64,000 bases of DNA from IMG/VR virus record IMGVR_UViG_3300037584_005429, positions 19,060-83,059 of that record. The stretch is one strand, 5' to 3'. The translations under genes were made by a program, and so were the position numbers. Positions 30,201 to 48,403 of the stretch are shown piece after piece. This DNA comes from a virus. Each line of letters starts with the position of its first letter. Position 1 is the first letter of the stretch. Below the pieces are notes generated by a model. It was not told where the DNA came from. It saw nothing but the letters and a program-made list of their open reading frames with translations, and did not search any database.

Positions 30201-30683
30201 TGATATGTGGTCTACATTAACATTAAATGTAGTTTGATTCGTACCGATGTCGTAATTTATATTATAAGCTGTAGTATTTCCACTTTGGTTTAATGAATTT
30301 ACACCGTCAATAAATAAAGCTGCTGGAAAAAAATTAATTATATTTTGAGTTGCGACACTTAATCTCTTTTTTAATGAGCCATATAAAACTAATTCAGCTA
30401 TATTACTAGTATCAGTATTTATGTATACTTGGTAATTATTTTTTGCAAAAGATTGTGCTGTTTTTAAATCACTAAAATCTAAAGATTCCAATGTAATTGG
30501 TTTAGAAAAACCTTCTAAAACTTGGTTAGTAGCTACACTTCTAGTATATTCTTGACTTATAGAAAAATTACCCATAGTCATCTGTGATGAACCATCGGTT
30601 ATTTGATTACCAACTAAATTATCACTAAAGGTATCTCCTCCGTGTCCTGGTGCTGGTGGATATCTAAATCTATTACTAGCCAT
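27237..30683 (-). CDS. Baseplate wedge protein (T4 gp7 / P2 gpI-like core)
   Basis: NIPNELIKNFAKTLGW ... YRRILLNTGYLFKSKGTRKSIEFLLGLLG...EFNEY is the gpI/gp7-type 'KGT..sI' motif. Ends in a Gly/Ser tail. Confidence 0.7.
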   Translation of the reverse strand: MASNRFRYPPAPGHGGDTFSDNLVGNQITDGSSQMTMGNFSISQEYTRSVATNQVLEGFSKPITLESLDFSDLKTAQSFAKNNYQVYINTDTSNIAELVLYGSLKKRLSVATQNIINFFPAALFIDGVNSLNQSGNTTAYNINYDIGTNQTTFNVNVDHISNPFVIEFTSNGELLNTPISKEQILNNLEMFGYGSDTIIKVADGTVSKLRNLTTEYKNYVLTLGGEINALEYKIIDFKPQTVTTGFLTFTVEGNPFINNTSTTDTFFVKPNKLESDDVFKNFDYVERFLMNREVVPEYTANFRLIKESSMGGTFYSDNLVTWTKQDAINIDVTTNAYTDYLTKLSDLGQELDIQKTNLVSRFLTSPVLKEFDTSDQKVEKTLQIYGRSFDDIKLFVDGIAYMTNVTYDGKNNIPNELIKNFAKTLGWSTPNTLNNNTFLDNVLGVSVPEYSGTSVSMTPAELDIELYRRILLNTGYLFKSKGTRKSIEFLLGLLGAPEALVEFNEYIVLADAKININKFYDNWSFISGGTYETKTIKYSIPFSSFTYVTGTTTHPFTLSDYPITSEGYPKVPRITDNFYFQRGAGWFERTEEHKSDLIINQQDSTLSGCNPSVVTKFREFTWGGFWTTGQFSNDPKAPYLDRFRRFPHMYLGYSLERIIDDKKSWVEIGQDIYRPDIEADIGIFSTSGNFEQTGFKNKVFRFNCGQLQSQKERLIEKFEELTAAQTHPKWRKMLMGRIRYIEMFQKNKCIAENETRKYSFNDRYWRSAYYQTSNEKLILNVKNVDLNLNIGQGLTYDVWRQSSLYNCMFSGGTLPPPYPTSGGTWDATNPKINAKKLDFKLFRDNFWKYFIDVKCRMTINDGKTGGYPVLQQMYLDYLNQSCGDNNKYTYTKMVDYAQSMGDYWIRIIEQMVPATTLWTSGVKVENSDFHRDKFVYRCYSMSGTPLSSIHTGQFTVNPTGYTSFPAPQFQARMMSFNAPPAAPQENTTYYNNILTGNTTNPVSTYASSYDINERSLISGSQLVVKETKILAQEFNTNKRKFQSKPTFTKQGSTNNLLCIYGLKEFGTKGLSWLKTYNLNSSDSPITPSAPTTTSSSPSGGGAAGISTPSTTSYSSSGGGTSSAGSSSSGGGGGSYGGGGSSGGGGGGY

Positions 30684-30689
30684 AAGTTG

Positions 30690-31598
30690 TTAAACGTTTA
30701 TTGTACTAAATGTCTTACTAAAATCTATGTTGTTACCCCTATTTGCTCTAATTTCGTATAATTGGTCATTAAATTGGTCTCTGACTTCATATAAATCGTA
30801 CTGTTGGTAGATATTTTGATTAAAGTCATAAAGGGTGTAGATTCCGTCGTCTATCGATTTAGATTGATTACCGTATAATGCAATTGCTAAAGTATCAAAG
30901 TCATGGTCTACCATTTCTACATCTAAAACAATAGGGTTAAAGAAAGTATTTGTAATTATAACATTTTGACCTGGTTGTCCTATAAATGGAATCGCGTTAG
31001 GATTATTAGAAGGTGCACTAGTTGGTGTTAGTGTACAAAATATTAAATTTGTTTCGGTATTAGTGTAGACATATCTAGGTGCTATTTGATTTGGGTTTGT
31101 TAGGTTTGCTGCTACTGGTTCACAATAAAAATTAGATGTTACTATTCTAAAAAAGTTATGTATTTTTTCTCCATTTGCTTGTAAATATTCTATTCTATAA
31201 CCAACTAGAGAATGTGGTTTAAATCTACTTCTATATGCTGCTGGTACATTATTTAAATCAAATACCAGTCCTTTTACGTTTGGCAGTGATGCCAATATAC
31301 CACAATCTATTATAGTGGTTCTTATTTCTACTGGTCTTATATAGATTGTATAGATACCTTTTGCGGCAAAAACATTAGATGGTAATTGTAAATCATATAA
31401 ACCACCTAAAATTTCAACACCATTTTGTCCACCAGTATTGTTTTGGTGATAGTGAGGTGTAAGTAGGGTGGTAGCTGGTAATTGCGAGACCACAAAATTA
31501 GAAGTAGCATCCCTACTAGGGGTATAGTGTACAATAATTTGTACATCATCTGGAAGTACGTCAGCTGGTCTTTTTATTCCGTATGCTCCTAATGCCAT
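30690..31598 (-). CDS. Putative structural (baseplate-associated) protein
   Basis: 302-aa ORF with beta-rich composition, tightly packed in the structural block. Confidence 0.6.
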   Translation of the reverse strand: MALGAYGIKRPADVLPDDVQIIVHYTPSRDATSNFVVSQLPATTLLTPHYHQNNTGGQNGVEILGGLYDLQLPSNVFAAKGIYTIYIRPVEIRTTIIDCGILASLPNVKGLVFDLNNVPAAYRSRFKPHSLVGYRIEYLQANGEKIHNFFRIVTSNFYCEPVAANLTNPNQIAPRYVYTNTETNLIFCTLTPTSAPSNNPNAIPFIGQPGQNVIITNTFFNPIVLDVEMVDHDFDTLAIALYGNQSKSIDDGIYTLYDFNQNIYQQYDLYEVRDQFNDQLYEIRANRGNNIDFSKTFSTINV

Positions 31599-32450: not shown

Positions 32451-35400
32451 TTAATTAGGTCCTTGAATAAAAGGGTCAATAGATGATGTCGGTTGTATAG
32501 AGGATGAGGAAGAACTGTTTGCACCACCACAAGGTGTATTAAGACTATTGACACCACAAGGTAACCACATACTATGATAAGTACCATTATTAACTATAAA
32601 TTGTCCACTATTAGGGTCACCAGTACCAGGGTCCATACCTACAATTTGACAAGGTGGTGGCATAGAACCAGATAAATTAGCTGGTTGTAGAGTTGTTCCA
32701 CCTGGAGCAACAGGTTGAGCGGGGTCTTTACATTTATTTAATACTGAATCCCACCCTAATTCACAAGCACAACACCAACAACAATTTTCGTTAATGTTAG
32801 TCGGGTCTACATTATATATACATTCACCTACTTGGAACGGCACACTAGTATATGCTGGATTAATTGATTGGTGTGGAAAGGTTACTGGAGTTGGTGGTAC
32901 ATAACCATTTAATGTTATATTACAGTCTTCACACTCAGTACTCACACTAGGTACACACGGGTCGTTATTAGCATCAACATTACAAGGTAACCACATACCA
33001 CCACCAATATTCTGTCCAACTATACTACTTGGTTCTGGTTGTCCATCTTTACATCGTGCTGGTGCACTCACCGAGAATAATAAACTTTGTAAACTTTCAG
33101 GTGCGTATGGATTTGCTCCTGCTGGACTTGGTCCAGCTGGTACACAACAATAACAACAATCACCATCAGTAGGGTCAAAAACACAATCATTTATATTGTA
33201 TAATGCTGCAGGACTCCAAGGACCCAAATAATTTACAGGACCAGTTAACAAACTACCTAAAGTAACATCACAATCATCACAACCTAAAAGTGGGTCTACA
33301 CAGTCTGCAAGACAGTCTTGAAGAGCTGTTGGACCCGTATATTGTCCCATTCCATTTCCTGGGTCTACACAATTACATGGACCCGGACAATTAACACAAT
33401 CAAAAGTATCTGGTATTGTTGGGTCCTCACAACAATTAAAAGCTTGTTGACAATCTAAAAGACTAGGGTATATACCTGAAGGGTCTGGTGCGCACTGACA
33501 AGGGGGTCTACATATATTACTAGAGGTTACATCTATACACAGATTAGAATTACTACTACAACCCGGAGCGTTGTTACAAGGAGTATTAGGGTCATTAGCT
33601 ATTTTTGAACTTACCGTTAATAAATTAATTAAAAAACCATCAGGTGAATATGCAGGGTTTCCTGCCGCACCTTGAGCTGGATTATAGAGGTCGTTCCATG
33701 TTGGTGGTGTAACACATCCTTGAGCGATATTCCACATAAAATGGTAGTAACTAGGTGTCGTGAAAGACATCATATCTGGATGACTAAATTCTATTTTACT
33801 TTTTTTAAGACGATATGTATTACCAGGACCATTTAAATTTGTTTCTTCAAAACAGCCTGGTGTCAACGCCAATCCAGGATTAGCTCCGTAAGGGTCAACT
33901 TGTGTACCACCTACAAAATTTACCCAATCAGTCTGATATGCTGGCCAATTTGTACCTGGTATACTAGTGCTATTATTAACATTATATCCTGCTGCTCTAT
34001 GTTTTAATAATAATACTTGTAAAGCTGTACCAGCATTAGAATAAAAACCTGCATTTACAATAGCATTAACTTGAGCGTTACTATATCCTAGAGGAAGTAA
34101 TAATGAAGCGTCGGAAGGGTTTACGGTAAATGCGTTTGAATAACTTTGGGTTAGACCAAGTCCATTTGGTTGATTAACATATGGAAGATTAGAACCGACA
34201 CCAATATTCCAACCTGTCCAAGCTGATGATACTGTATTATCACCCTTACATGACCAAGTCTCTGGTATATAACAACATGTAGTAGTATCTGCGGTACACG
34301 AAGCTAAAGTATTATACCCAACAGTAGCATTTGCATCCCAAATACATGGACAAATTCCTGTACCTGGGTCTGGATTTCCTGTGTTACAAACATAATAACC
34401 AGTTGTTGGGGGTTGACAACAAGGATTAGCGTTTGCCGCAATATTACAAGTAAATAAATCGTTATAAATACAATTAGGTCCAGTAACACAAGGTTGGCAA
34501 TAACAAGGAGCTATTGTACAATTACAGTATTCTGGACAACAGTAGTTGTAACCACCCATAGTTCCACCCCAATTTTGTCCACCTTCTGTGTTAGACGCAC
34601 CACAATGAGTCTGCCAAGCTGTAGAGTTTTGTTGGTGTGAATTACCTAAACTTACTCCTGGTACACCTACAGCTGTTGATTGTGCAACCCAATCAGCGTA
34701 AGAAGTTGTAATTATACCCCCTCCAATTGCTGCATCTACTGCTGCATCATTAGGACACCCCCCAAGTGCCAATCCTACGGACCTCCATGAGGTACCAGGT
34801 CCGTTTGGTGTGATACATATTCCAACAACACCGTTCCCTTCAACTTTAATCCCTGTAAATGGTACATTGTGGTATGCTGGATTTGCTGCTATCCACATCA
34901 TATAAAAACTCATGCTGGCCATAGGTAGCGTTGTACCTACACTAATAGCATCAGCATTAGTTAAAAAATAATTTCCGGCCGTGACACAAGAATTTGTTAA
35001 ATTACCACCTTCTATACATTCAAACATAGTTGTTGCTGCTGTGGTAGGGCAAGAAGTGTCACATGGTACCCACATTGGGTACCCACCATTTGTTTGTCCA
35101 CCAGGAAACGTGTTTGGTACATTAGCTGCTAAGAAATTTGAATATTCGTTATACCACTGTGATGGGTTCATACCACTATGTAAAGCTGGGTCATATTGGT
35201 CGTATACCATAACATAACAACAACAAGTGTTTGCTGAATCACAATGTGTTACCACATCCGCTATATTATACATAACACCAGGTGTCCAAGTAGGTGCACT
35301 AATAGTACTACCTACAATTGGAGTTGGGATGTTAACGGAACTTAGTGACCAATTACCACTTGCATCAATTACAGGGAAAGTAACATTACCCGCGGTTAAA

Positions 35401-38400
35401 CAATCGTTACATGGACAACAAGTTGTATTGTCTGAACCTACACCACCTAATGGATAAGAGTTTGTGGTACAAGCCGACATAGTATTGTAAGCCGTACAAC
35501 CTAAATAAGGCGGATTTGCGGTCAAAAATGGTATAGTTATAAGACTACAATGACATGGGTCTGGTTGAGCTATCGCACCTAAATCTGGTTTACATTCTCC
35601 ACATACAAAGTTACACTCATCTTGACAATCTGCTGGGTTTGAAAAAGGTCCATGTACACAATCTGATGGCATGGTACCAACAAAACTTATACAACCATCC
35701 GTTGCGTGACAACAATATTCTGTTGATTGTGGACAACAAGGGTATTGAGCTTGTAAACTTATACAATCTCCTATTGATATCGCACAACTAAAATTATATG
35801 GATTTAAGTCACATAAACAACTAACAGTTGTATCACAACAAAATCTACAAGCAGCTTGACAGTCACTTAGACTAGCAAATCCTGTAGCTCCCGCTGGATA
35901 CGGTGTAGCATTACCTTGTTGACCGAAAACTTGATTTTGTGTCCAACCTGGGAAAGGTGGTGTTGTAATCCACCCTTGAATTGTTGTTTCTGGAAAACAA
36001 TTTGTTGTTGTAGCTGACTGTCCCGGATTAGTATCACAAAAGTAAACTGATGGTGCTGTACAATTACAATTATTTGTATTTGCCCAACAATCAAAAGCTG
36101 ACGTATGTTCTGGGAATAAACCTAATGGGTTACTACCCACAAACTGACATTGTCCTCCTGTTGATGATGCGTCACATGCCCATTTACAGTTTTCTTGACA
36201 GTCTGCTAAAGTAGTGTAAGCAGCAGATGGATATAGTGGGTCCCCTGGAAAAACTTCTATACACCCACAACCATCAGGTGCTACACAAGGTGATAAAGAA
36301 CTACACCATTCTGTATCATCACAATGAAATTTACTAGTTGCTCCAGAACAACAATCTAAATTATTTGGTGGTGGTGCTAATATACCTTGTTGACACTGAA
36401 ATACACTTATAAACCCATACCAACTTGATGTGTTAGTTGTCACCCCATTTATAACATCTTGTAACATAACACAATCTGTAAAGTCATCAGTTGGGTCAGC
36501 AGGTGTACCATTATCATCACAGAAACAACCCGCTTTACAATGGTCCATACATGTACTTGCTGTATAACAATTGTTCGCGGCCTCTTGACCGAAAACATAA
36601 TTACAAGGTACAACATTAAGGGTACAACCATTAAAAAAGTCACAACTATATGTATCACCAGATACTTGTTGACATGGGTCACAACCAAAACCTATACCTG
36701 CAGTAGCTCCACTTGGTGTACTACCACAACTTATCCACGTATTAGGGGTTCCATTTGGTGCATCTGGACCTCCCGGTATAAAATAATTACAATCATAGAA
36801 TCCTCCTGGATAAGGGTTACTATATATTGGTGTATCACAATAATAGCAACACACATCAGGTGACCCTAATTGCCAGGATACATAATCATATAACTCATAA
36901 GCATTATATACACTATCCCATTCTCCTTGGTCTACACCAATACCTCCAGTAAATGGGTCACAAGCACATTCACAAGTTACTTCATCAGGTACACACCCAG
37001 TAGGGTTATCTGTAGTACATTGTGTAAAGTTACAATATATAGGTCCAAGAGGGCTACAAGGTGGATTAGCACCCACAACCGAAATATATACACAAGGCCA
37101 GTATGGCCAAGATGGGTCATACTGACCACTTGCTGGATTAAATATTTGTGAATCTTCATCACATTCTATATCACAACAACCTGTTGCCATACAACAAGCT
37201 GAAAAAGAATCATAGGGACCTCCAGGTGACCAACCCCAACCACTAGGTAATGTTGCTGGATTTGAATAATTTTGACAGTTACCGTAGCTACTACCATCTG
37301 TTAAATTAACAAGACAGTCATGCCCACCATCTGTGGGACAATTGTCGTCACAAAGTTGTGCGGTGGCATAACTTCCATTTGGGTATAAAGCTAATAAACC
37401 TGGGTCTATAGGATTTGGGTTTGCACCGAACCCACTTAAAGGTACGTTTGCTGGGTTAATAGCCCAAGTTGCTTCCCAAGCTGGTAATGGTGTAGGGCAA
37501 GGTGATAATTGTTGGCAGGGTGTGGCATCACCACTTAAACAAACCCAACAGCTAGTTAATGGTGGTACACAATAAGTACAACACTGTGCTGATGTAGTAT
37601 AAGGACCACAACCTGGTGTAAAACAAGGTATACATGTACTACTACCAGGAAAACCAGTACCACCACTACAAGGTTGTACCCATGGGTCGTAACAAAGCCA
37701 AGCACAAGGACCAGGTATCCCATTATTATTATTTGGGTCACTAGCACAATCACCAGAAGTAGCGTAAGTACCCCCAACTATTTGTACACAACCTTGGTCA
37801 CAAAAATATTCCCAAGCTGTAAAATCACAACACGCTGATATTCCTTGGCCTGGAACACCGTTTTCACAATCATTTAAAGTATAAAATGGGTCTAAAAATA
37901 ACTGATTATTATTAGCTGTTATTTGTGGGTTAGCTAGAATATAATTTGTCATTATATCGTAATAGTCCGCATCCGGTAAAGCTGCACATGATACTTCAGA
38001 ACAACAAGGTGTTGATGTTGGTGTTGTACATGACCAAGCTATTGGATTACACCAATCTTCACAATCTGTCATTGAAGAGAATGTAACTGAAAAAGGATAT
38101 GTGGCTGCTGAGTAAGCTGGGTGTGTATAATCTATTTGAATACACCCTGGTTGGTCACAATTATATTGGTTTGGGCAATGCCATCTATCATCGACTGGAC
38201 AATTACCATTATTATATTCTGTTAAACAACCACCAGGACCAGCGTAAAAAGTAAAACTATTAGGTGTACTTCCTGAAATTAATTCACAAACATAAGGACC
38301 TGGATTGTTCAAATCTGGTGGACATACCCAACTTACACAACCTACATAATCCCAATAAGATACGTTAGTAGTTGCTGTAGGTACTATACCTGCTGGTACA

Positions 38401-40388
38401 TTAGTTAAAGCTCTATAACAATTTCCATCTGGACCATATATAAACTCTCCTGTATTAAATGTTTGGGTGTTATCCCATTGTCCCGCTACACCAATACCAC
38501 CCATAGGTGAATAAGCGTTGAATGGACTATATGGGTCAGCACATGGTAGTGCACTACCTGTAGGACAAGTTACACAGTCTGGTGTACAGGCTTCCCAAAC
38601 ATGTACATCTGTACCCCCAGTAGGGTTAAGATAAACTCCTTGGTATAACTGATGTGGTAGTATTCCAGCAAATGGACTATTACCGCCCACATTACTTGTT
38701 TGTACTATATCTGTTACTGCTATATAACAACAACAAGATTGTGGTGTAACATCATAAACTATATCTCCTTTAACATAATCTACAAATGGTGACCAATTAG
38801 GTGGATTAGCAGGTGCATTAGCTGTTATAGTTTCTACAGTTAAAGTAACTCTGTCAATATATTCATCTTTTGTTAAACAAAATTCACAAGTTTCTTCAGG
38901 GCACTCAAAACAATCTTCACCACCAAAAGCTAAAGAATTTAAACCACAACTAGTAGCTACGAAAATAGTTATTCCATTTCTAAAATCGTAAAAATCTATT
39001 GGTGTTTGTCCATTAGCTGAAGATATCGTGTATCCCGTATATTGTACATTTGCCGCAAATATGTTTCCAACCATACCTGCTGTTATAGTATTTGTTAGTG
39101 GGTCAACAACATCACCACCAACTGGTACTATAGTAAATAATTCAAAACCATCAGGTAAAAATCCTGGTGCTAAAGTAGATGGTGCATTACTATAACTTGC
39201 AAATATACCTACTGTACTTTCTGTTATACCAGTAACTTCAAAACATGGAGTTATATTAGTACCACTATATTCGTTTATATTAGTACCGGAATCCAATGGA
39301 TAGTAATTAGGTGTTCCTATGGTCCCATAAGTACCGTGATACGCGGTTGATGTAAATAATGGTGGTGGAAACACAGAAGGTGTTGGGTTAGGTCCACTTA
39401 CATTTACTTGATATGGATTACCTCCTGGTGTACTAGGTGATAAAGGACCACCCATACCCGCACCAGTAGGTGGGGCTGTAGAGAAGGGTTGAGATAATAT
39501 TTGTGTATACGTTAGATTAGGTACTGTTATTATTTGACTAACTGAAGTTGGTCCCCATGGACCATTATGTGTTATACTAATACTGTACTGTGAAGGATTC
39601 ACATATTCGTATTCACTAGTTAGAGAAGGATATTGTAAATCTTCACAACATGGATAGCCGTTTGCATTGAAGGGAACGGAACAGTCACATTCTCCCCAAT
39701 CAATTCTATATGATGATTTTTGAAATTCTTTATACGAACCAAAATCTGTTGTGTTATACACCTGTATTTTCATCCCATTACCTGTTGTATTAGCTGTAAA
39801 ATTAAAATTAGAAAATACTTGTTGTTGGTCTATTCTTCCGTCCCAAATACTATAATGTCCTATATCGTTATAATCTTGTGTTAAAGTTACTGGAAGTTTA
39901 TATAAAATACTATCTAAGGGGTCTAAACAACTACATATTTCTACACTTTCACCCCAAAACGCATTAATACCTTGTGAGTTTAATGACTGATTTATATTTG
40001 TATTAGTAACGTCATATATTGTAATTAAATCATTATAACTACCAGTATAAAAAGTTGAACCTGAAGTAAGTACTAAACCTTTAAACTGAACATAACTATA
40101 TCCATCTGGGTTGAAGCAATTAGTTGGGTTTGGACTTAACGGTTGGTCCCATAGAATTACACACGGATTAGTCGGTGAACAATCTTTTAATTCGGTTGGA
40201 AAACTAGACATAACACTACTATCTATAGCATTCATTATTTGAGAACCTGTTGAGTTGTACATGGTTATCCCAGAACAATTTGTACTAAGGTTTATTGGAT
40301 AAAAATTTGTTCCTCCAGTACATGGCATTGTCCAAGTACTTCCAGTATCTGGGGTACTTCTTCTTATTGTAAACTTTTGTATATCCAT
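32451..40388 (-). CDS. Giant Cys/Pro-rich repeat protein (putative tail appendage/adhesin) with PKD-like and CBM5/12-like modules
   Basis: 2645 aa with about 200 Cys by manual count, nearly all after residue ~490. YRIDWGE is PKD-like, W-x5-Y-xx-(G)D-x-V modules repeat, and there is no signal peptide. Lies in the baseplate block. Confidence 0.7.
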   Translation of the reverse strand: MDIQKFTIRRSTPDTGSTWTMPCTGGTNFYPINLSTNCSGITMYNSTGSQIMNAIDSSVMSSFPTELKDCSPTNPCVILWDQPLSPNPTNCFNPDGYSYVQFKGLVLTSGSTFYTGSYNDLITIYDVTNTNINQSLNSQGINAFWGESVEICSCLDPLDSILYKLPVTLTQDYNDIGHYSIWDGRIDQQQVFSNFNFTANTTGNGMKIQVYNTTDFGSYKEFQKSSYRIDWGECDCSVPFNANGYPCCEDLQYPSLTSEYEYVNPSQYSISITHNGPWGPTSVSQIITVPNLTYTQILSQPFSTAPPTGAGMGGPLSPSTPGGNPYQVNVSGPNPTPSVFPPPLFTSTAYHGTYGTIGTPNYYPLDSGTNINEYSGTNITPCFEVTGITESTVGIFASYSNAPSTLAPGFLPDGFELFTIVPVGGDVVDPLTNTITAGMVGNIFAANVQYTGYTISSANGQTPIDFYDFRNGITIFVATSCGLNSLAFGGEDCFECPEETCEFCLTKDEYIDRVTLTVETITANAPANPPNWSPFVDYVKGDIVYDVTPQSCCCYIAVTDIVQTSNVGGNSPFAGILPHQLYQGVYLNPTGGTDVHVWEACTPDCVTCPTGSALPCADPYSPFNAYSPMGGIGVAGQWDNTQTFNTGEFIYGPDGNCYRALTNVPAGIVPTATTNVSYWDYVGCVSWVCPPDLNNPGPYVCELISGSTPNSFTFYAGPGGCLTEYNNGNCPVDDRWHCPNQYNCDQPGCIQIDYTHPAYSAATYPFSVTFSSMTDCEDWCNPIAWSCTTPTSTPCCSEVSCAALPDADYYDIMTNYILANPQITANNNQLFLDPFYTLNDCENGVPGQGISACCDFTAWEYFCDQGCVQIVGGTYATSGDCASDPNNNNGIPGPCAWLCYDPWVQPCSGGTGFPGSSTCIPCFTPGCGPYTTSAQCCTYCVPPLTSCWVCLSGDATPCQQLSPCPTPLPAWEATWAINPANVPLSGFGANPNPIDPGLLALYPNGSYATAQLCDDNCPTDGGHDCLVNLTDGSSYGNCQNYSNPATLPSGWGWSPGGPYDSFSACCMATGCCDIECDEDSQIFNPASGQYDPSWPYWPCVYISVVGANPPCSPLGPIYCNFTQCTTDNPTGCVPDEVTCECACDPFTGGIGVDQGEWDSVYNAYELYDYVSWQLGSPDVCCYYCDTPIYSNPYPGGFYDCNYFIPGGPDAPNGTPNTWISCGSTPSGATAGIGFGCDPCQQVSGDTYSCDFFNGCTLNVVPCNYVFGQEAANNCYTASTCMDHCKAGCFCDDNGTPADPTDDFTDCVMLQDVINGVTTNTSSWYGFISVFQCQQGILAPPPNNLDCCSGATSKFHCDDTEWCSSLSPCVAPDGCGCIEVFPGDPLYPSAAYTTLADCQENCKWACDASSTGGQCQFVGSNPLGLFPEHTSAFDCWANTNNCNCTAPSVYFCDTNPGQSATTTNCFPETTIQGWITTPPFPGWTQNQVFGQQGNATPYPAGATGFASLSDCQAACRFCCDTTVSCLCDLNPYNFSCAISIGDCISLQAQYPCCPQSTEYCCHATDGCISFVGTMPSDCVHGPFSNPADCQDECNFVCGECKPDLGAIAQPDPCHCSLITIPFLTANPPYLGCTAYNTMSACTTNSYPLGGVGSDNTTCCPCNDCLTAGNVTFPVIDASGNWSLSSVNIPTPIVGSTISAPTWTPGVMYNIADVVTHCDSANTCCCYVMVYDQYDPALHSGMNPSQWYNEYSNFLAANVPNTFPGGQTNGGYPMWVPCDTSCPTTAATTMFECIEGGNLTNSCVTAGNYFLTNADAISVGTTLPMASMSFYMMWIAANPAYHNVPFTGIKVEGNGVVGICITPNGPGTSWRSVGLALGGCPNDAAVDAAIGGGIITTSYADWVAQSTAVGVPGVSLGNSHQQNSTAWQTHCGASNTEGGQNWGGTMGGYNYCCPEYCNCTIAPCYCQPCVTGPNCIYNDLFTCNIAANANPCCQPPTTGYYVCNTGNPDPGTGICPCIWDANATVGYNTLASCTADTTTCCYIPETWSCKGDNTVSSAWTGWNIGVGSNLPYVNQPNGLGLTQSYSNAFTVNPSDASLLLPLGYSNAQVNAIVNAGFYSNAGTALQVLLLKHRAAGYNVNNSTSIPGTNWPAYQTDWVNFVGGTQVDPYGANPGLALTPGCFEETNLNGPGNTYRLKKSKIEFSHPDMMSFTTPSYYHFMWNIAQGCVTPPTWNDLYNPAQGAAGNPAYSPDGFLINLLTVSSKIANDPNTPCNNAPGCSSNSNLCIDVTSSNICRPPCQCAPDPSGIYPSLLDCQQAFNCCEDPTIPDTFDCVNCPGPCNCVDPGNGMGQYTGPTALQDCLADCVDPLLGCDDCDVTLGSLLTGPVNYLGPWSPAALYNINDCVFDPTDGDCCYCCVPAGPSPAGANPYAPESLQSLLFSVSAPARCKDGQPEPSSIVGQNIGGGMWLPCNVDANNDPCVPSVSTECEDCNITLNGYVPPTPVTFPHQSINPAYTSVPFQVGECIYNVDPTNINENCCWCCACELGWDSVLNKCKDPAQPVAPGGTTLQPANLSGSMPPPCQIVGMDPGTGDPNSGQFIVNNGTYHSMWLPCGVNSLNTPCGGANSSSSSSIQPTSSIDPFIQGPN

Positions 40389-40389
40389 C

Positions 40390-41253
40390 CTATGTTGTTA
40401 CGTATTCATAAAATTTTATTGGTCCATTGACCGTCTCACCTAATGGTGACAATACAATTCCCGTAGCTCCAGCTACTGAATTATATGGGTGTATAGTATA
40501 ATTATATTTAGGTGTTGTATTGTATGTTTCTATATTTAAAATTACTTGGTAGTAGAAAAAATCTTCAAAACTGTATTGTCCTTGTATTGGTGTCGGTTCT
40601 TGATTTAACATTCTCATTACAGTACCAGTTCTAGCATTAAAAAATTTACATGTCATGTAAAATGTGTTAGCTGTAAATAAGTCTCTATCTTTTAACCATT
40701 GTAAATAATAATTTTCATTTGCACCTTCTGGTGCTGAAGCGGCAGAAAAAGCTGGTGTATATACATCATACAATGGTAGATTTATACCTTGACTTTTTTG
40801 TCTCCAATACTCTTCAGGGTCTTCAGCTAAAATTACGGGTACTGTTTGTTTTCTACAGTTATTAGTAGGCATTATTGTTGAGAAGAGTAGTTTTTGTTCT
40901 TCTCTTACTGGTACATCGAAAAAATCAAATTTAAAAAAACTTTTAGTAAATGATTGTGAATTTCTAGCCAGCTCTCCATTAGTATAACCTAATATATTAA
41001 AATCATTGACATAAGTAGTATTTAAACTATCCCAAAATTCAAACTCGTAATATATTTCAAAGTTGGGTGGGTAGTTAGGTGTATATCTAGTAGTTTCATA
41101 ATCTTGTATAAAATTTATATTACTTTGTAATTCAATTTCATCATACATTTCTAAAAGTTGTTCTCTACCAACTTCATCAAATATTTGACCTAAAGGTACA
41201 ACTACTTTCTTATCTTCCGAAGAAGCTTTTATTTGTATTCTATTCACAGACAT
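40390..41253 (-). CDS. Putative structural protein
   Basis: 287 aa, aromatic-rich (SFFKFDFFD, FYMTCKFFNA), overlapping its upstream neighbour. Confidence 0.6.
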   Translation of the reverse strand: MSVNRIQIKASSEDKKVVVPLGQIFDEVGREQLLEMYDEIELQSNINFIQDYETTRYTPNYPPNFEIYYEFEFWDSLNTTYVNDFNILGYTNGELARNSQSFTKSFFKFDFFDVPVREEQKLLFSTIMPTNNCRKQTVPVILAEDPEEYWRQKSQGINLPLYDVYTPAFSAASAPEGANENYYLQWLKDRDLFTANTFYMTCKFFNARTGTVMRMLNQEPTPIQGQYSFEDFFYYQVILNIETYNTTPKYNYTIHPYNSVAGATGIVLSPLGETVNGPIKFYEYVTT

Positions 41254-43057
41254 CTACAAATTCTGAAACTACATTTATGCTACTAGAGCTATAACCAAAC
41301 ATTACAGGTTCTATTTTAAATTCTGTATTTAAATAAGGGTAATGTGCGTCATTTAAAAACGGATAACTAACACCATTATCCCCATCTTCAAAAAAATCTA
41401 TAGGCAAGATAGGTCTCCACCTAAAGGTACCTTCTGATAAAGAATAAGTAGCGTATGGGGGTGTTGTAAATAGACTATCTTCATAACTTATAGTTGTGGA
41501 TAATTTACGTATTGGTATTCTATGGTGTGGTTGATAGTTATATATTGATTTTACATATTGACTAGGTATAGAGGTATTGGGGTATCCCGCAAATTCATAC
41601 ATAGCATCTCTATTAAATTTTAAAGAGTGTTTGATTTCTGAAATTACTCTTTCTTTTAACTCAAAGGCATTGTATTCAACAAAAGCACCTCTATAGGTAG
41701 TACCACTTAAAGGTAGTGGGTCTAAACCATTAGTATTATTTTGAAATAGGTTTGTGGGGTTTGTATTATTATCGACAAATGGGTCTATGAATCCATTATG
41801 TCTAAAGTTCCACTCCCACCCATATCCAGTTGGTGAGTTAGCGGGAGCCTCATAATGCCACATTAAGTTTCTATTTGTTTGAAAAATTGTTAGATATAAT
41901 TCTGTCAAAGGTCTATTAAGGTTATCAGAAAATTCTTCCACGTCTATATCAAGATTTATATTCCATAAAAAAGATTTAAAATCTTCTATAATTGCTGTTT
42001 TATCACCGTAACCATCAGGAGTTCTTCTAGATTTATAAACTCTACCTTTTTTATTATATATTCCATTTTCAAATCCAGTTCTATCTAATGTATAATCGGA
42101 TGAATTAGTTATCAATTTATGAATATGGGTACAATAAGTAGAACGTGTCTCATTAATATTATCTAAATTTATTATACGTTTTATAACACAAAAGGAATTT
42201 GTTGGTACGGCTGCTGGGTCTATACCTTTAGTGTATATGTTTAGGACATAACTTTCTGAATTTGCAAATTCATTACCTAGAAAATCTACCTTGAATATGT
42301 TTTGATTAACTGTATTTGATACATTATTTATATCGGAAGTAATTGGTACGGTTGGTACTAGGTTTGCTCCACCAAAACTATTAATAGACACACTACTTTG
42401 TAATTCTACAAATTCACCTGAAGATATTCCGTGAGGAGATGCTGTTGTTATTCTTATAGTTTCTTTTCCATCTGTCGTTACTACTTGTATACGAGCTGGT
42501 ATACCATCCCCACTATTAAAATTAATACCATCTGTACCATCACCCATACTAAATGACATAGTTTGTCCTGTATCACAACCTGAAATATAAGATATGTAAG
42601 CTACCCAATTATCTTGGTAGGAATCTAAACTACTAAATTGTGAAGCTGTTGTTATCCCATATCTATATGGTGGCATAAAAGTAAATAAATCTGATGGTGG
42701 TAAACCAACACATGGTGGTCCTGTCCAATAACCTAAACCTGGACTTGCAATCGCGGGGTCTGGACAACCGATATAATCCGGTGTAAAATACATGTATTCC
42801 AAAACTCTACTATCGTTAGTTACCCCAGTTATCTGATTACTATATAATATATCTATTTTACCATAAGGTCTATATGTTGTGGAGTATTCTCTTTCAAAAT
42901 CAAATTGGTCTCTTAGGTTAAGAACTAAATTTCTATCACCCTCTATCATAGCACGTTGTTCTGCTGTTAAAAAAGGTTGTAAACTAATATCTTTATTTTG
43001 AGCTCCCGCAAATCTAGATTCACCCCTAACAATTCTTATATTTTTTTTATTACTCAT
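41240..43057 (-). CDS. Putative structural (baseplate-associated) protein
   Basis: 605 aa. ITTASPHGISSGEFVEL resembles the 'T...HGL..GD.V' beta module common in phage baseplate and fibre proteins. Confidence 0.6.
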   Translation of the reverse strand: MSNKKNIRIVRGESRFAGAQNKDISLQPFLTAEQRAMIEGDRNLVLNLRDQFDFEREYSTTYRPYGKIDILYSNQITGVTNDSRVLEYMYFTPDYIGCPDPAIASPGLGYWTGPPCVGLPPSDLFTFMPPYRYGITTASQFSSLDSYQDNWVAYISYISGCDTGQTMSFSMGDGTDGINFNSGDGIPARIQVVTTDGKETIRITTASPHGISSGEFVELQSSVSINSFGGANLVPTVPITSDINNVSNTVNQNIFKVDFLGNEFANSESYVLNIYTKGIDPAAVPTNSFCVIKRIINLDNINETRSTYCTHIHKLITNSSDYTLDRTGFENGIYNKKGRVYKSRRTPDGYGDKTAIIEDFKSFLWNINLDIDVEEFSDNLNRPLTELYLTIFQTNRNLMWHYEAPANSPTGYGWEWNFRHNGFIDPFVDNNTNPTNLFQNNTNGLDPLPLSGTTYRGAFVEYNAFELKERVISEIKHSLKFNRDAMYEFAGYPNTSIPSQYVKSIYNYQPHHRIPIRKLSTTISYEDSLFTTPPYATYSLSEGTFRWRPILPIDFFEDGDNGVSYPFLNDAHYPYLNTEFKIEPVMFGYSSSSINVVSEFVDVCE

Positions 43058-46000: not shown

Positions 46001-46458
46001 AAATCACCTGATTCATTACTTCTTGCTGTAAATTTATAATATTTATCATAAACGTATTCTATTTCTTGTTTTTCTAAAACTTCGTTTATGGTTGGAAATG
46101 TACCAACTGGAATATGACAATCAAAGTTTGGGTCTTTAGATAATAGATTGTATCTTTTTCCTGAACTATCAGTATCAAAAGGTTGTCTAAAGGGATATAA
46201 TTGTCTTATTACTGGATTTTTTTCGTCTTCAGTATCTATCGGTATGAATATTGAAACTTTAGCATTTGGTATTCCGTAACCACCGTTAGAAATAACCCTA
46301 CCTACTACAACACCAAAATCAGCACACATCCTAGTGTAAACTTCATTTTGTGAGAGAGATAAACTTAAAATTTCTAATAAGTCAAAATCTTGGTTTAACT
46401 CAAAACTTACTTTTTGGTCTTTTCCAACTTGTGTTCTTACTCTAATAGATTTAGACAT
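43057..46458 (-). CDS. Large baseplate-associated protein with a transthyretin/carboxypeptidase-regulatory-like N-terminal domain and an internal hydrophobic segment
   Basis: GVVVGRVISNGGYGIPNAKVSIF ... TARSNESGDFMLYGVPVGDQTL, and a ~60-aa hydrophobic stretch flanked by Cys clusters. Directly downstream of the gp6/J-like gene. Confidence 0.6.
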   Translation of the reverse strand: MSKSIRVRTQVGKDQKVSFELNQDFDLLEILSLSLSQNEVYTRMCADFGVVVGRVISNGGYGIPNAKVSIFIPIDTEDEKNPVIRQLYPFRQPFDTDSSGKRYNLLSKDPNFDCHIPVGTFPTINEVLEKQEIEYVYDKYYKFTARSNESGDFMLYGVPVGDQTLVMDVDLSDIGCFSMLPEDFKQLGFPDSDFDGTRFRDDAAIDSLPQIIGQQKSIDVRPFWGDEEFCNASITRVDFDLANSGVKIQPTAVFMGSTATDTDKDSVNKRCRPKKHMGELCSLATQPGIIDCVRYSPFFKEDVTAFPPWPYDGSGTGGGQVPVLERFYFENGGRVIDETGSFLVHMPMNLDHVITDEFGNLVKSNDPSLGVATRTRCRFRVRPEQSAGTARQRRRGSHLVPQIREFGPHTDINGDWPEIGENLVDGAGNNKRYDPYCFSIEYSDYHPWAQANLIPGAKDVFYDMTFNRVYTYSQFHDHVKHNGRRQFIGIKEILPEQDQQCSTSAMFFPINSAVRRAKAIIFLNQFILFFTYAIYLALTSIIGIIATVFGIVMVVVAVVMSVVCTIYNLINAWSWLASMLNFPPAPTICSQLSWSSSCQPACTVFGIPSGFILFTLRQKKYPECEDCMCRTNANADMAVLQSGYGWSNDDCGVSTNAFGVERDVVCCPDSYGYNSTTSSPPPNALGGSTDADNDLAAGGGCYVKPICMNVACAGFNTNTVVIREWYRRERVFSALCNGIMNYFWENAWVNGFLYQFQFRAKLSYDAANDTYDTSGTRYCKKVVYLHPNDHTFYYRCSPFRWNTSTTGSFIGDTDGVRGGNNSSNNHSEGDMDRHLYFPTTIVDMGSRNQCIQQICLDEEFAQECSVTDQIGSTTFQDITDLVSDAYNLKASEPNMNLGDLFARPEDEIGGDMAQALMQNCMLGVFGYETNTTTTNCDCTVPPGAPPPGGQIIEDIEYPTPNSYANSGTYVDYAVNVNPAYDIQWRPHLFTASTPTIMTGADLIDCLAYDLSGSSQVIPFYTWRVDGSGGFGNENNDWQFTTGPYQSQGDDWTVPSGNPPTINSGDYQANVGLLNSFPQPGTPGDAYPPMTQNTGPSMLFSQPLFYYFGLRPGETAYNKFIRLYVDEELADSVI

Positions 46459-48402: not shown

Positions 48403-48403
48403 A

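What the first reader, a model, noticed from the sequence alone, without database searches (positions are those of the whole stretch)
32451..38920. Giant eukaryote-extracellular-like Cys/Pro-rich repeat protein in a phage baseplate operon
Seen: about 190 Cys in ~2150 aa, very few Lys/Arg, many CC/CCC clusters and no signal peptide. It is built from many diverged copies of a module (W/Y/F)xC...C...G.(Y/F).(S/T)...C...C, e.g. YFCDQGCVQIVGGTYATSGDC and FDCVNCPGPCNCVDPGNGMGQYTGPTALQDCLADC. The module's end resembles the Kunitz 'F.t...C...C' helix. Some modules appear to have large domains nested between their Cys (near 34500-35010 and 33500-34250). Established: typical phage fibres are Cys-poor trimeric beta structures. 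Inference: an undescribed class of disulfide- or metal-stapled, beads-on-a-string virion appendage for glycan, particle or host capture. No exact DNA repeats were noticed, suggesting an old expansion.
Basis: partly seen in the sequence, partly recalled or inferred. Interest (0 to 1): 0.85.

Follow-up and report, generated by a model that had tools for sequence, protein, structure and literature searches.

The report
Giant cysteine-bead phage baseplate fibre
An uncultured ocean jumbo phage encodes, among its baseplate genes, a real 2,645-residue protein in which one residue in thirteen is a conserved cysteine; it is most likely a very long, disulfide-locked adhesion fibre built from chitin-binding-type modules and small cysteine beads of the kind marine Bacteroidota use in their own secreted proteins.

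Summary
The other 39 ORFs of the window have 0-4.8% Cys. It is not an assembly artefact. 26 complete colinear orthologues (2442-2992 aa) lie in independent marine viral contigs, always after the gp25-like and gp6-like baseplate genes. Cys is by far the best conserved residue: 126 of 202 are invariant.

The protein has a conserved N-terminal anchor with a PKD-like sandwich. Then come six Cys-decorated CBM5/12-like modules, many small hairpin-helix Cys beads, two Cys-poor hypervariable cassettes and a variable tip.

No Pfam, PHROG or PDB sequence match was found. Fold matches are weak: chitin-binding domains Z about 4, Kunitz Z 2-3.

This scan had already found orthologues on other DNA. Its lead that the bead also occurs in T9SS-secreted Bacteroidota proteins was tested here and held up.

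Best reading (0.55): a baseplate-anchored, disulfide-stapled adhesin fibre with swappable specificity cassettes. Disulfides, virion location and ligand are inferred. It is a new variant of a known kind, the phage receptor-binding fibre.

The parts
32451..40388 (-). Whole ORF, 2645 aa, 202 Cys; start ATG at 40388, one base after the stop of the upstream 287-aa ORF
39921..40319 (-). N-terminal domain 1 (res 24-156), alpha/beta, fold unassigned
   Evidence: AF2 pLDDT 80-91; five nearly invariant Cys; no fold match listed
39513..39830 (-). PKD/Ig-like beta-sandwich (res 187-292)
   Evidence: VIA Z 8.9 to PrtV PKD1, 78 of 82 residues aligned; Foldseek prob 1.0 to PKD domains; Pfam PKD only sub-threshold in relatives
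39243..39512 (-). Pro/Gly-rich linker (res 293-382), predicted disordered
   Evidence: pLDDT 26-37
38949..39242 (-). Conserved beta domain 3 (res 383-480), part of the anchor shared with distant relatives
   Evidence: pLDDT 61-81; matched in loci L040-L056
38586..38807 (-). CBM5/12-like module A1 (res 528-601)
   Evidence: HMM E 4.8e-15; tandem A1-A2 aligns to the tandem CBM of chito-oligosaccharide deacetylase, Foldseek E 6.6e-3, prob 0.99
38322..38483 (-). CBM5/12-like module A2 (res 636-689)
   Evidence: pLDDT 71-86; motif W..F..GE.I; profile against PDB sequences only E 0.34 to the COD CBM
36939..38321 (-). Cys-bead array I (res 690-1150)
   Evidence: B-module HMM hit at 738-781, E 1e-17; invariant Cys
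36726..36926 (-). CBM5/12-like module A3 (res 1155-1221), weak
   Evidence: window-HMM cross hits to A4 and A5; weak (E 1.8)
35394..36725 (-). Cys-bead array II (res 1222-1665); hairpin+helix beads
   Evidence: HMM hits 1362-1402, 1494-1515, 1552-1593; AF2 pLDDT 50-79 with repeated strand-strand-helix; Kunitz entries Z 2.1-2.7 on res ~1400-1440; Cys count even in 21 of 21 rows for res 1354-1444
35061..35294 (-). CBM5/12-like module A4 (res 1699-1776)
   Evidence: HMM E 4e-12; VIA Z 4.3 to a Pa193 tail-fibre domain, Z 3.9 and 3.5 to chitinase CBMs
34518..35033 (-). Hypervariable cassette X1 (res 1786-1957), Cys-poor
   Evidence: 21% identity to L002, which is ~100% identical over res 1-1700; the cassette type is shared with distant L029; pLDDT <30
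34245..34517 (-). Six-Cys beads (res 1958-2048), C.C...G.Y.[ST]L..C...CC
33519..34244 (-). Variable cassette X2 (res 2049-2290), Cys-poor here; replaced by tandem bead arrays in other lineages
   Evidence: mean identity 15-19%; L011 and L016 carry 30 Cys here
33273..33518 (-). Beads (res 2291-2372), including the bead most like those of T9SS-sorted Bacteroidota proteins (res 2333-2364)
   Evidence: HMM of 135 metagenomic beads: 18.2 bits, E 2.5e-6
32982..33224 (-). CBM5/12-like module A5 (res 2389-2469)
   Evidence: HMM E 6e-13; VIA Z 4.2 to SmChiB CBM5 (48 aa, rmsd 2.0) and to the S. griseus ChiC chitin-binding domain (52 of 53 aa)
32556..32861 (-). CBM5/12-like module A6 (res 2510-2611), weak
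   Evidence: window-HMM hit A6 to A5, E 4.8e-12; DNA repeat D6 at the shared ...MWLPC ends
32454..32555 (-). Variable Ser-rich C-terminal tip (res 2612-2645)
   Evidence: 29% identity to L002 over the last block
46561..48865 (-). Context: gp25-like (48404-48865) and gp6-like (46561-48402) baseplate wedge genes
   Evidence: PHROG 43/261 and 6/219
40390..46458 (-). Context: three syntenic ORFs (1133, 605, 287 aa) between the wedge genes and this gene; no family match
27237..31598 (-). Context: downstream syntenic ORFs (302 and 1148 aa), no family match

Best explanation
It is a structural protein of the virion: a very long peripheral baseplate fibre or adhesin of an uncultured marine myophage. 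The genome is about 320 kb and the host is probably a member of the Bacteroidota. The first ~500 residues (domain 1, a PKD-like sandwich, domain 3) are the conserved part. They sit in a fixed gene position after the baseplate wedge genes and most likely dock the protein on the baseplate. The remaining ~2100 residues are a beads-on-a-string chain of small modules that fold on their own. There are six CBM5/12-like beta modules decorated with extra Cys, and more than a dozen hairpin+helix beads with four to six Cys each. Two Cys-poor cassettes (X1, X2) and the tip interrupt the chain and are exchanged between otherwise near-identical phages. These variable parts, and perhaps the CBM-like modules, would bind a glycan on the host surface or on particles. 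The Cys pair into intramodule disulfides that can only form once the particle leaves the reducing cytoplasm and meets oxic seawater. This would give a rigid chain that resists proteases and shear and is almost free of Lys and Arg. Shown: the gene, composition, conservation, repeats, synteny, mosaic variability and the bead shared with T9SS cargo. Inferred: virion location, disulfides, oxidation after lysis, ligand and host.
For: Gene and context: PHROG hits for gp25-like and gp6-like genes lie 6-8 kb upstream on the same strand. The order gp25-like, gp6-like, 1133-aa, 605-aa, 287-aa ORF, then this gene is kept in 52-55 of 55 IMG/VR loci. The Flavobacterium phage immuto record has the same layout, ending in annotated tail fibre and tailspike genes.

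Real and constrained: 26 complete orthologous ORFs of 2442-2992 aa have 7.4-8.6% Cys and 0.9-2.4% Lys+Arg. Across 22 non-redundant full-length proteins (34-88% identity), 126 of 202 Cys columns are invariant. Mean Cys conservation is 0.86, against 0.51 for Trp, the next residue.

Anchor and variable distal part: distant loci L040-L056 share only residues ~130-560. Against L002, identity is ~100% over residues 1-1700, 21% in X1 and 29-45% at the C-terminus. The X1 type of this protein recurs in L029, which is 36% identical overall.

Modules: the A modules align to chitin-binding CBM5/12 domains and to small domains of solved phage tail fibres and tailspikes (Z 3.4-4.3, rmsd 1.9-3.1, 45-61 residues). 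Foldseek hits include the phage 7-7-1 tail fibres (E 1.9e-3), chito-oligosaccharide deacetylase (E 6.6e-3) and the Milano receptor-binding complex (E 8.3e-3). BFVD hits carry the names 'chitin-binding type-3' and 'ChiA1-BD' phage proteins (E 1.5e-4 to 4e-3).

Disulfide reading: in residues 1354-1444 all 21 of 21 aligned rows have an even Cys count (10 or 12), and extra Cys arise two at a time in at least four clades. Variable Cys elsewhere co-occur in local pairs: 907/937, 922/927, 1368/1374, 1716/1722, 2293/2299, 2334/2338. His is only 0.9% of residues and there are 24 CC doublets. The bead type recurs in at least 120 marine metagenome stretches. The 82 ORFs carrying it mostly begin with signal-like N-termini (judged by eye). 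Six of the 10 scanned carry the T9SS sorting domain above Pfam's cut-off, so they are exported proteins. An HMM of 135 such beads hits 8 of 25 orthologues (reversed control 0 of 25; other window ORFs 0 of 20).

Precedent: disulfide-linked fibres and baseplates are described in Pam3 (PMC9942802) and Milano (PMC10811340, which gives 2.1% Cys in its structural proteins and 0.9% in T4). Passages of both were read.
Against: There is no direct evidence that the protein is in the virion.

Global Cys parity is not clean. Deviations from the modal Cys count were even in 126 cases and odd in 87 over 29 segments chosen by eye. They were 124 even and 140 odd in sliding windows. Total Cys counts are odd in 9 of 22 proteins.

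Paired gain and loss is confounded by phylogeny, because many variable columns are clade markers.

No thiol oxidase was found: Erv1/ALR in 0 of 5 related records (though the named control genomes were silent too) and DsbA in 0 of 5 (control genomes positive in 8 of 14). These records are only 26-72% complete.

The AF2 models are poor: mean pLDDT 49.8 and 62.5, and X1 and X2 below 30. All fold matches for the A and B modules have Z below 5, a range the tool itself calls common.

The CBM5/12 Pfam model does not reach threshold on any module.

The bead HMM match to this very protein is partly circular. The 42.6-bit hit in orthologue L004 is less affected.

The host assignment rests on indirect hints only. 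Two scans of 185,579 species genomes found no relative.
Confidence: 0.55

Rival explanations
1. The protein has the same location and role, but the Cys mainly bind metal (Zn or Fe-S knuckles) rather than forming disulfides. The beads could then fold inside the reducing cytoplasm before assembly.
For: Virions assemble in a reducing cytoplasm, and no phage-encoded oxidase was found. Some local patterns look like knuckles, for example CFECPEETCEFC at residues 493-504. There are 15 C-x2-C spacings. Total Cys counts are odd in 9 of 22 proteins, and global parity is mixed.
Against: His is rare (24 of 2645). CC doublets (24) and heterogeneous spacings dominate. Extra Cys arise in pairs within a bead. 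The same bead type is used in exported T9SS proteins, which mature outside the cytoplasm. The beads model as hairpin+helix with weak likeness to Kunitz, a fold held together by disulfides.
Confidence: 0.15
2. It is a virion protein but not a host-receptor fibre. It could be a particle- or chitin-tethering appendage, or a protective baseplate 'garland', that holds the phage on marine particles where hosts live. Adsorption to the host would be done by the downstream large proteins.
For: It has six CBM5/12-like modules plus a PKD-like domain, the accessory set seen in chitinases. Several further large syntenic ORFs downstream (1148, 1322 and 1192 aa) could be the true fibres. Sponge, estuary and plankton metagenomes hold near-identical sequence. 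Milano has a non-fibre 'garland' around its receptor-binding proteins (PMC10811340, passage read).
Against: Cassette swapping between near-identical phages is the usual mark of host-range determinants. CBM5/12-like small domains also occur in ordinary tailspikes and fibres. No binding data exist.
Confidence: 0.2
3. It is not a structural protein. It would be released at lysis or injected, for example as an array of protease-inhibitor-like or adhesive modules acting on the host or its surroundings.
For: It has a weak fold likeness to Kunitz inhibitors. Two of the 10 bead-bearing T9SS-type ORFs scanned score above the Kazal_1 cut-off. There is no direct virion evidence.
Against: It has no signal peptide and no TM segment. 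Its position inside the baseplate-to-fibre block is fixed in 55 of 55 loci. It has an N-terminal conserved, C-terminal mosaic layout. Neither Kunitz nor Kazal is matched by sequence in this protein.
Confidence: 0.05
4. It is an artefact: a chimeric assembly or a non-coding open frame.
For: The window comes from a metagenomic contig estimated at 26% complete.
Against: There are 26 complete colinear orthologues from independent samples and 38 colinear hits in 1.84 billion representatives. Contigs of two runs from two studies tile all 30 of 30 bins with 0-1 differences (one of the two may be the source sample). Conservation is extremely selective for Cys.
Confidence: 0.01

Closest known systems
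Uncurated ~33-aa four-Cys bead of T9SS-sorted secreted proteins of marine Bacteroidota ([ST]-W-D-C-x(3-6)-C-x-D-P-G-x-G-x-G-x-Y-x-[ST]-L-x-x-C-x3-C). No Pfam model was hit. The lead came from earlier notes of this scan and was tested here.
   Same: The bead has the same consensus and is used in the same tandem way. An HMM of 135 such beads hits residues 2333-2364 here (18.2 bits) and an orthologue's bead at 42.6 bits; 8 of 25 orthologues hit and 0 of 25 reversed. A phage-bead HMM hits 24 of 82 bead ORFs, with 0 of 82 reversed.
   Different: The bacterial proteins have signal-like N-termini, and 6 of 10 have a Por_Secre_tail domain. This protein has neither. Most phage beads carry two extra Cys (C.C ... 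CC) and are too diverged for the HMM. Here the beads alternate with CBM-like modules in a single 2645-aa chain.
CBM5/12 chitin-binding domains (ChiB, ChiC, ChiA1, GbpA, COD) and the same small domain in phage tail fibres and tailspikes (Pa193, 7-7-1, Pam1, phiAB6, CBA120)
   Same: The motif W-x5-[YF]-x2-G-[DE]-x-[VI] ... aromatic ... W is present. The fold aligns over 43-55 residues at rmsd 2.0-2.9 (Z 2.3-4.3). It has a tandem arrangement like COD.
   Different: The Pfam model is below threshold everywhere. Each module carries a CC or CCC insertion and a long variable loop closed by ...W..C. Sugar binding is untested.
Disulfide-linked baseplate and fibres of cyanophage Pam3 and Agrobacterium phage Milano
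   Same: These are phage tail structures held by disulfides that must form after or outside the reducing cytoplasm (PMC9942802, PMC10811340; passages read).
   Different: There, a few inter-subunit bonds join otherwise ordinary proteins (Milano structural proteins have 2.1% Cys). Here there is 7.6% Cys, apparently within modules, in dedicated small beads.
Kunitz/BPTI domain
   Same: The topology is a beta-hairpin followed by a C-terminal helix that carries C-x3-C. Seven or more Kunitz entries align to residues ~1400-1440 (Z 2.1-2.7, 36-40 residues, rmsd 2.0-3.0).
   Different: There is no sequence match. The Cys number and spacing differ. The Z values lie in the chance range.
T4-type baseplate periphery proteins and fibres (gp7-gp12 region)
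   Same: The gene lies directly downstream of gp25-like and gp6-like genes, within a run of large structural ORFs.
   Different: There is no detectable sequence or fold relation to any T4 protein. Oligomeric state is unknown.

Membership tests
CBM5/12 (Pfam PF02839) | Sequence reaches the Pfam gathering score (26.2 bits) | tested here: not met
   0 families for the whole protein at E<=1. 0 of 19 A2-module sequences match. Distant relatives L043 and L040 score only 13.6 and 15.1 bits.
CBM5/12 (Pfam PF02839) | Small three-stranded beta fold of ~45 aa superposable on solved chitin-binding domains | tested here: inconclusive
   Z 4.2 to SmChiB 451-498 (48 aa, rmsd 2.0). Z 4.2 to S. griseus ChiC ChBD (52 of 53 aa). 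Z 2.3 to ChiA1 ChBD (43 of 45 aa). All are below Z 5.
CBM5/12 (Pfam PF02839) | Binds chitin or another insoluble polysaccharide through exposed aromatics | not testable with these tools
   Conserved W, Y and F positions are seen.
Kunitz/BPTI (Pfam PF00014) | Sequence match and the six-Cys pattern of the family | tested here: not met
   No Pfam hit on the protein. None on 21 bead-pair sequences at E<=10. No Kunitz chain among PDB sequence hits at E<=10. The Cys spacings read from the sequence differ (the family's own spacing is recalled, not tested).
Kunitz/BPTI (Pfam PF00014) | Hairpin plus C-terminal helix fold | tested here: inconclusive
   Z 2.1-2.7 to APPI, bikunin D2, HAI-1, HAI-2, boophilin and SmCI.
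PKD domain (PF00801 / PF18911) | Ig-like sandwich superposable on PKD domains | tested here: met
   Z 8.9, with 78 of 82 residues of PrtV PKD1 aligned. FN3 domains score nearly as well (Z 7-8.7), so this shows the fold class rather than the family.
PKD domain (PF00801 / PF18911) | Pfam gathering score | tested here: not met
   No hit on this protein. Relatives L044 and L040 score 15.8-18.8 bits against a cut-off of 27.
Four-Cys bead of T9SS-sorted Bacteroidota proteins (uncurated) | Match to a profile built from the bacterial beads | tested here: met
   Residues 2333-2364 score 18.2 bits, E 2.5e-6. 8 of 25 orthologues have E<1e-3 and 0 of 25 reversed. The test is partly circular for this protein, because the fetching pattern used its motif.
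T9SS cargo protein | Sec signal peptide and C-terminal Por_Secre_tail domain | tested here: not met
   No Pfam hit. The N-terminus is hydrophilic. The protein borrows the bead but is not T9SS cargo.
Phage receptor-binding fibre / adhesin | Encoded in the baseplate/tail-fibre gene block | tested here: met
Phage receptor-binding fibre / adhesin | Conserved N-terminal attachment part and mosaic, exchangeable distal parts | tested here: met
Phage receptor-binding fibre / adhesin | Present in the virion and needed for adsorption | not testable with these tools
   No isolate exists. No RNA holder or proteome was available.
Diversity-generating retroelement target | Template/variable repeat pair near the variable region | tested here: not met
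   No direct repeat longer than 49 nt in the 64-kb window. No reverse transcriptase appeared among the ORFs scanned (not every ORF was scanned).

The most novel reading that the evidence does not exclude
The fibre is a redox-timed appendage assembled from modules taken from the host's own secretome. About a hundred disulfides cannot form in the cytoplasm, so the 2100-residue chain stays unfolded and non-adhesive until lysis. It then snaps into a rigid chain of host-type surface beads and chitin-binding modules in oxic seawater. This would stop progeny from sticking to the dying cell. It would also place the phage on the same polysaccharide particles, with the same surface chemistry, as its Bacteroidota host. 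That would be a cytoplasm-to-seawater folding switch not described for any phage.
Probability: 0.15. Interest if true: 0.85.

Novelty: new variant of a known kind. Interest (0 to 1): 0.62.

Why it matters
Tail fibres decide which bacteria a phage can infect. The known ones are Cys-poor trimeric beta structures. This lineage of large ocean phages was seen in 24 runs of 14 studies (only 4 runs were laid, and most held about 35-40% of the sampled words). It builds its largest baseplate protein in another way, from dozens of tiny Cys-locked beads and sugar-binding-type modules, with cassettes swapped between near-identical phages. If the disulfide reading holds, it raises a testable question: how and when does a protein made in a reducing cytoplasm acquire about 100 disulfides? 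The bead shared with T9SS-secreted proteins gives a host clue (Bacteroidota) for phages that have no cultured host. It also points to module exchange between a host's secretome and its phage's adhesin. The beads themselves are small, stable and free of Lys and Arg, a scaffold type missing from the domain libraries searched.

Tried and rejected
- Sequence libraries gave nothing for the protein: Pfam at E<=1, PHROGs at E<=0.1, the PDB profile at E<=1, and tblastn against 50,697 phage records.
- The ten neighbouring structural ORFs had no Pfam hit. The ten downstream had no PHROG hit.
- Foldseek against PDB on the Cys-rich model gave 0 hits at E<=1e-3.
- The ESM Atlas on the N-terminal 520 aa gave only PKD clusters at 0.75-0.83, below the 0.9 lead level, with no structure search.
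- Homotrimer test of residues 24-292 with complex prediction: verdict 'no answer', score 0.00. This is no evidence either way.
- No RNA holder was listed among the sequencing runs, so nothing can be said on expression.
- In runs X4 and X6 some bins over the C-terminal tail and X1 had no cover. A hole there proves nothing.
- Erv1/ALR gave 0 of 5 records with silent controls. DsbA gave 0 of 5. The records are fragments, so absence is not shown.
- The glutaredoxin-like ORF 2680-3048 scores 21.2 bits, below the 22.9 cut-off. It sits in the replication and nucleotide block, so I do not read it as a disulfide pathway.
- A DGR was rejected: no template/variable repeat pair.
- The second Cys-rich ORF of distant loci has no phmmer match to this protein, so a 'split gene' is not shown. 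Only the composition is shared.
- Two scans of genome contigs, with the N-terminal alignment and with the P0062-family alignment, found no relative. There is therefore no direct host record.
- The profile of residues 690-1690 against 1.84 billion representatives found only colinear orthologues or fragments (38). A single 35-45-aa bead could not reach significance in that search, so it does not exclude beads elsewhere. The pattern scan later found them.
- Literature searches listed no paper describing a giant Cys-rich phage tail protein or this bead. That holds only for the library searched. Most listed papers were seen as listings only.
- I read passages of PMC9942802, PMC10811340 and 10.1101/2023.03.06.531300. 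The Cys repeats in the last paper are unrelated.
- Supplementary files were not asked for. The disulfide tables of the Pam3 and Milano papers were therefore not seen.


Full report
WHAT IS THERE. The finding sits in a single open frame, window 32451..40388 on the minus strand, 2645 aa. The protein has 202 Cys (7.6%), 258 Pro, 248 Gly, only 23 Lys and 14 Arg, 24 CC doublets and a net charge of about -181. Among the 40 ORFs of at least 100 aa in the window, it is a stark outlier. The others have 0-4.8% Cys and 4.7-19.2% Lys+Arg. Its higher G+C (39% against about 30%) follows from this composition. It has no hydrophobic N-terminus and no TM-like segment. Pfam, PHROGs, a PDB sequence profile and tblastn against 50,697 phage records all gave nothing.

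IT IS A REAL, CONSTRAINED GENE. The window is part of an 83-kb IMG/VR viral contig that CheckV rates 26% complete. Related records of 128-232 kb are rated 34-72% complete, which implies genomes of about 320 kb. A word-seeded search found 24 relatives of 1811-2965 aa in marine metagenomes. An IMG/VR scan found 55 loci, of which 26 hold complete colinear ORFs of 2442-2992 aa with 7.4-8.6% Cys and 0.9-2.4% Lys+Arg. In 22 non-redundant full-length proteins (34-88% identity), 126 of the 202 Cys columns are invariant and 155 are kept in at least 90%. Mean conservation of Cys is 0.86, against 0.51 for Trp, the next best residue. Near-identical DNA is held by 24 listed runs from 14 studies: marine, estuary, sponge and plankton metagenomes. 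Only 3 of these runs hold half or more of the sampled words. Contigs of two runs from two studies tile all 30 of 30 bins of a 10-kb stretch around the gene with 0-1 differences. One of those runs may be the source sample. A chimeric assembly is excluded.

CONTEXT. All genes in the window run on the minus strand. Upstream lie a gp25-like and a gp6-like baseplate wedge gene (PHROGs 43/261 and 6/219), then three ORFs of 1133, 605 and 287 aa without any family match, then this gene. Its ATG follows the upstream stop by one base. Downstream are further large ORFs (302, 1148, 1322, 1192 and 809 aa), also without matches. The order gp25-like, gp6-like, 1133, 605, 287, this gene is kept in 52-55 of 55 loci. 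The downstream 302- and 1148-aa ORFs are seen in 38 and 36 of 55, many loci being cut there. The nearest cultured relatives of the gp6-like protein (26-29% identity) are Flavobacterium phage immuto, Microcystis phage Mel-JY01 and an uncultured 484-kb phage. In immuto the same block ends in annotated tail fibre and tailspike genes. The structural block is flanked by T4-type replication genes: UvsX-like, SSB, DnaB, primase, SbcCD-like and RNR.

ARCHITECTURE. Profile windows cut from the family alignment and searched against the protein gave many off-diagonal hits. Two iterated HMMs then defined two repeat families, with no hit at E<1e-3 in reversed sequences.
- Family A has the consensus W-x5-[YF]-x2-G-[DE]-x-[VI] ... 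CC[YW] ... W..C. It is strong at residues 530-560, 1699-1730 and 2389-2416 and weak at 636-657, 1155-1184 and 2518-2540.
- Family B is a small module ending [YF]-x-[ST]-x2-3-[DS]-C-x3-C. It is significant at 738-781, 1362-1402 and 1494-1515 and weaker at 1552-1593. A strict version of the end motif occurs 9 times against 0.5 expected (0 of 1000 shuffles; the motif was defined post hoc).
- A six-Cys variant (C.C ... G.Y.[ST]L..C ... CC) occurs 5 times here and up to 9 times in relatives, where it forms tandem arrays.

STRUCTURE MODELS. AlphaFold2 of residues 1341-2540 with 23 sequences was poor overall (mean pLDDT 49.8). It gave the beads pLDDT 50-79 with a repeating strand-strand-helix pattern and module A5 73-86. 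The two Cys-poor stretches fell below 30. The model of residues 1-700 (34 sequences, mean 62.5) shows several parts:
- a confident domain 1 (residues 30-155, pLDDT 80-91);
- a beta sandwich (200-290);
- a disordered Pro/Gly linker (292-382);
- a beta domain 3 (383-480);
- modules A1 and A2.

FOLD COMPARISONS. The sandwich matches PKD and FN3 domains: Z 8.9 to PrtV PKD1 with 78 of 82 residues aligned. Modules A4 and A5 align to CBM5/12 chitin-binding domains. Examples are SmChiB 451-498 (Z 4.2, rmsd 2.0), S. griseus ChiC ChBD (Z 4.2, 52 of 53 residues), GbpA (Z 4.0) and ChiA1 ChBD (Z 2.3, 43 of 45). They also align to small domains of solved phage fibres and tailspikes: Pa193 (Z 4.3), Pam1, 7-7-1, phiAB6 and CBA120. 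The A1-A2 tandem hits the 7-7-1 tail fibres, the tandem CBMs of chito-oligosaccharide deacetylase and the Milano receptor-binding complex at Foldseek E 2e-3 to 8e-3. It also hits BFVD phage proteins named chitin-binding type-3 or ChiA1-BD. One bead (residues ~1400-1440) aligns to seven or more Kunitz entries, but only at Z 2.1-2.7. All these Z values are in the range the tool calls common. By sequence, neither CBM5/12 nor Kunitz is reached. So the protein works like a chain of CBM-type and Kunitz-topology mini-domains, but membership in those families is not established.

ANCHOR AND VARIABLE PARTS. Distant loci (L040-L056) share only residues ~130-560, inside ORFs of 540-1258 aa. A second ORF of 476-1078 aa follows that is also Cys-rich (3-7%) and poor in Lys and Arg, but has no detectable similarity to this protein. 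Against its closest relative L002, the protein is ~100% identical over residues 1-1700. Identity then falls to 21% in residues 1800-1899, recovers to 70-86%, and falls to 45% and 29% in the last two blocks. Cassette X1 (1786-1957) comes in several unrelated types of similar length, bounded by conserved Cys. The type found here recurs in L029 (36% identical overall), while L002, L003 and L005 share another type. X2 (2049-2290) is replaced in other lineages by arrays of beads. This pattern of conserved N-terminus and shuffled distal cassettes is the usual signature of receptor-binding proteins. There is no DGR-like repeat pair.

DISULFIDE OR METAL. Several observations favour disulfides:
- Cys is the dominant constraint.
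- His is rare, and CC doublets and irregular spacings are frequent.
- In the well-aligned bead pair 1354-1444, the Cys count is even in 21 of 21 rows (10 or 12), and extra Cys appear two at a time in at least four clades.
- Variable Cys elsewhere co-occur in local pairs.

Against this, a global parity test is mixed: 126 even and 87 odd deviations in segments chosen by eye, and 124 and 140 in sliding windows. Total counts are odd in 9 of 22 proteins, and paired columns are partly clade markers. No Erv1/ALR or DsbA gene was found in five incomplete related records. Coordinates of the models were not available, so Cys-Cys distances could not be read.

THE BEAD OUTSIDE PHAGES. Earlier notes of this scan, on orthologues in other genomes, said that the bead also occurs in T9SS-sorted proteins of marine Flavobacteriales. 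I tested this as follows.
- A degenerate DNA pattern for W-D-C ... C-x-D-P-G-x-G-x-G-x-Y found at least 120 stretches in marine metagenome contigs. The hits are often in tandem, with starts about 99-105 nt apart in the clearest arrays. One lies on a 600-kb contig.
- The 82 ORFs that carry it mostly begin with signal-like N-termini, judged by eye.
- Of 10 ORFs scanned, 6 carry Por_Secre_tail above Pfam's cut-off (29-52 bits against 27). They also carry secreted-enzyme domains: thermolysin plus CUB, PKD, and a sub-threshold trypsin-like match.
- A profile of phage beads hits 24 of the 82 ORFs, and 0 of 82 reversed.
- A profile of 135 of the bacterial beads hits 8 of 25 orthologues of the giant protein, 0 of 25 reversed and 0 of 20 other window ORFs. 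It scores 18.2 bits on residues 2333-2364 here and 42.6 bits in L004.

The test is partly circular for this protein, because my pattern used its motif. T9SS is confined to Bacteroidota, and its cargo crosses the periplasm (established knowledge, not tested here). The bead is therefore an extracellular module, which fits the disulfide reading and points to a Bacteroidota host. A further family of 430-707-aa bead proteins (35 members) also exists, one of them on an IMG/VR contig.

VERDICT. The protein is best explained as a baseplate-anchored, bead-built adhesin fibre with exchangeable specificity cassettes, probably disulfide-locked after release. It is a new variant of a known kind, not a new category. 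Disulfide-linked phage baseplates are published. CBM-type modules are common in fibres, and the bead is shared with bacterial secreted proteins. What remains unusual is the scale (about 200 conserved Cys in one virion protein, 3.6 times the Cys fraction the Milano paper gives for that phage's structural proteins), the near absence of Lys and Arg, and the open question of how such a protein matures.

Noticed in passing
window 57509-63829 (-): A 2106-aa ORF whose last ~50 residues match endolysin and metallo-endopeptidase PHROGs (E 2.8e-6 and 8e-4). It may be a virion-associated lysin or a tape-measure-like giant.
   Followed up: no
window 5974-8194 (-): A DegT/DnrJ-type sugar aminotransferase (E 6e-74) lies next to a family-2 glycosyltransferase-like ORF (just below the Pfam cut-offs). 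This is a phage-borne sugar-modifying pair, close to the structural block.
   Followed up: no
window 1731-2528 (-): A phage-encoded sigma-70 family factor (regions 2 and 4, E about 1e-16).
   Followed up: no
window 16370-17179, 43057-46458, 23257-27225 (-): Other tail-block ORFs are also Cys-enriched (4.8%, 2.9% and 2.3%) compared with 0-2% in the replication genes. The whole tail may rely on Cys chemistry.
   Followed up: partly
loci L040-L056, e.g. L049:9737-13687, L044:9644-15996: In distant relatives the same genome position holds two ORFs. The first carries the shared N-terminal domains. The second (476-1078 aa) is again Cys-rich and poor in Lys and Arg, but has no detectable similarity to the window's protein.
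   Followed up: partly
P0062 family; L058:5992-7425: A separate family of 35 marine proteins (430-707 aa) is built around five or six four-Cys beads, with a conserved charged N-terminus and no signal peptide. One member lies on a 54.8-kb IMG/VR contig. No relative was found in 185,579 species genomes by a pattern-limited scan.
   Followed up: partly
L136:445-1821 (-), L122:101-1210 (+): Two of the 10 bead-bearing secreted ORFs from marine metagenomes also score above the Kazal_1 cut-off (26.6 and 25.9 bits against 21). One of them sits on a 600-kb contig.
   Followed up: no
window 2680-3048 (-): A 122-aa glutaredoxin-like ORF (21.2 bits, just under the 22.9 cut-off). Another first-reader note proposed it as part of a disulfide pathway. 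It sits far from the tail block, and glutaredoxins commonly serve ribonucleotide reductase.
   Followed up: partly
window 34518-35033 (-) compared with L029 and L002: The X1 cassette of this phage is shared with a phage whose fibre is only 36% identical overall, while an 88%-identical fibre carries a different cassette. This indicates recombinational exchange across lineages.
   Followed up: partly
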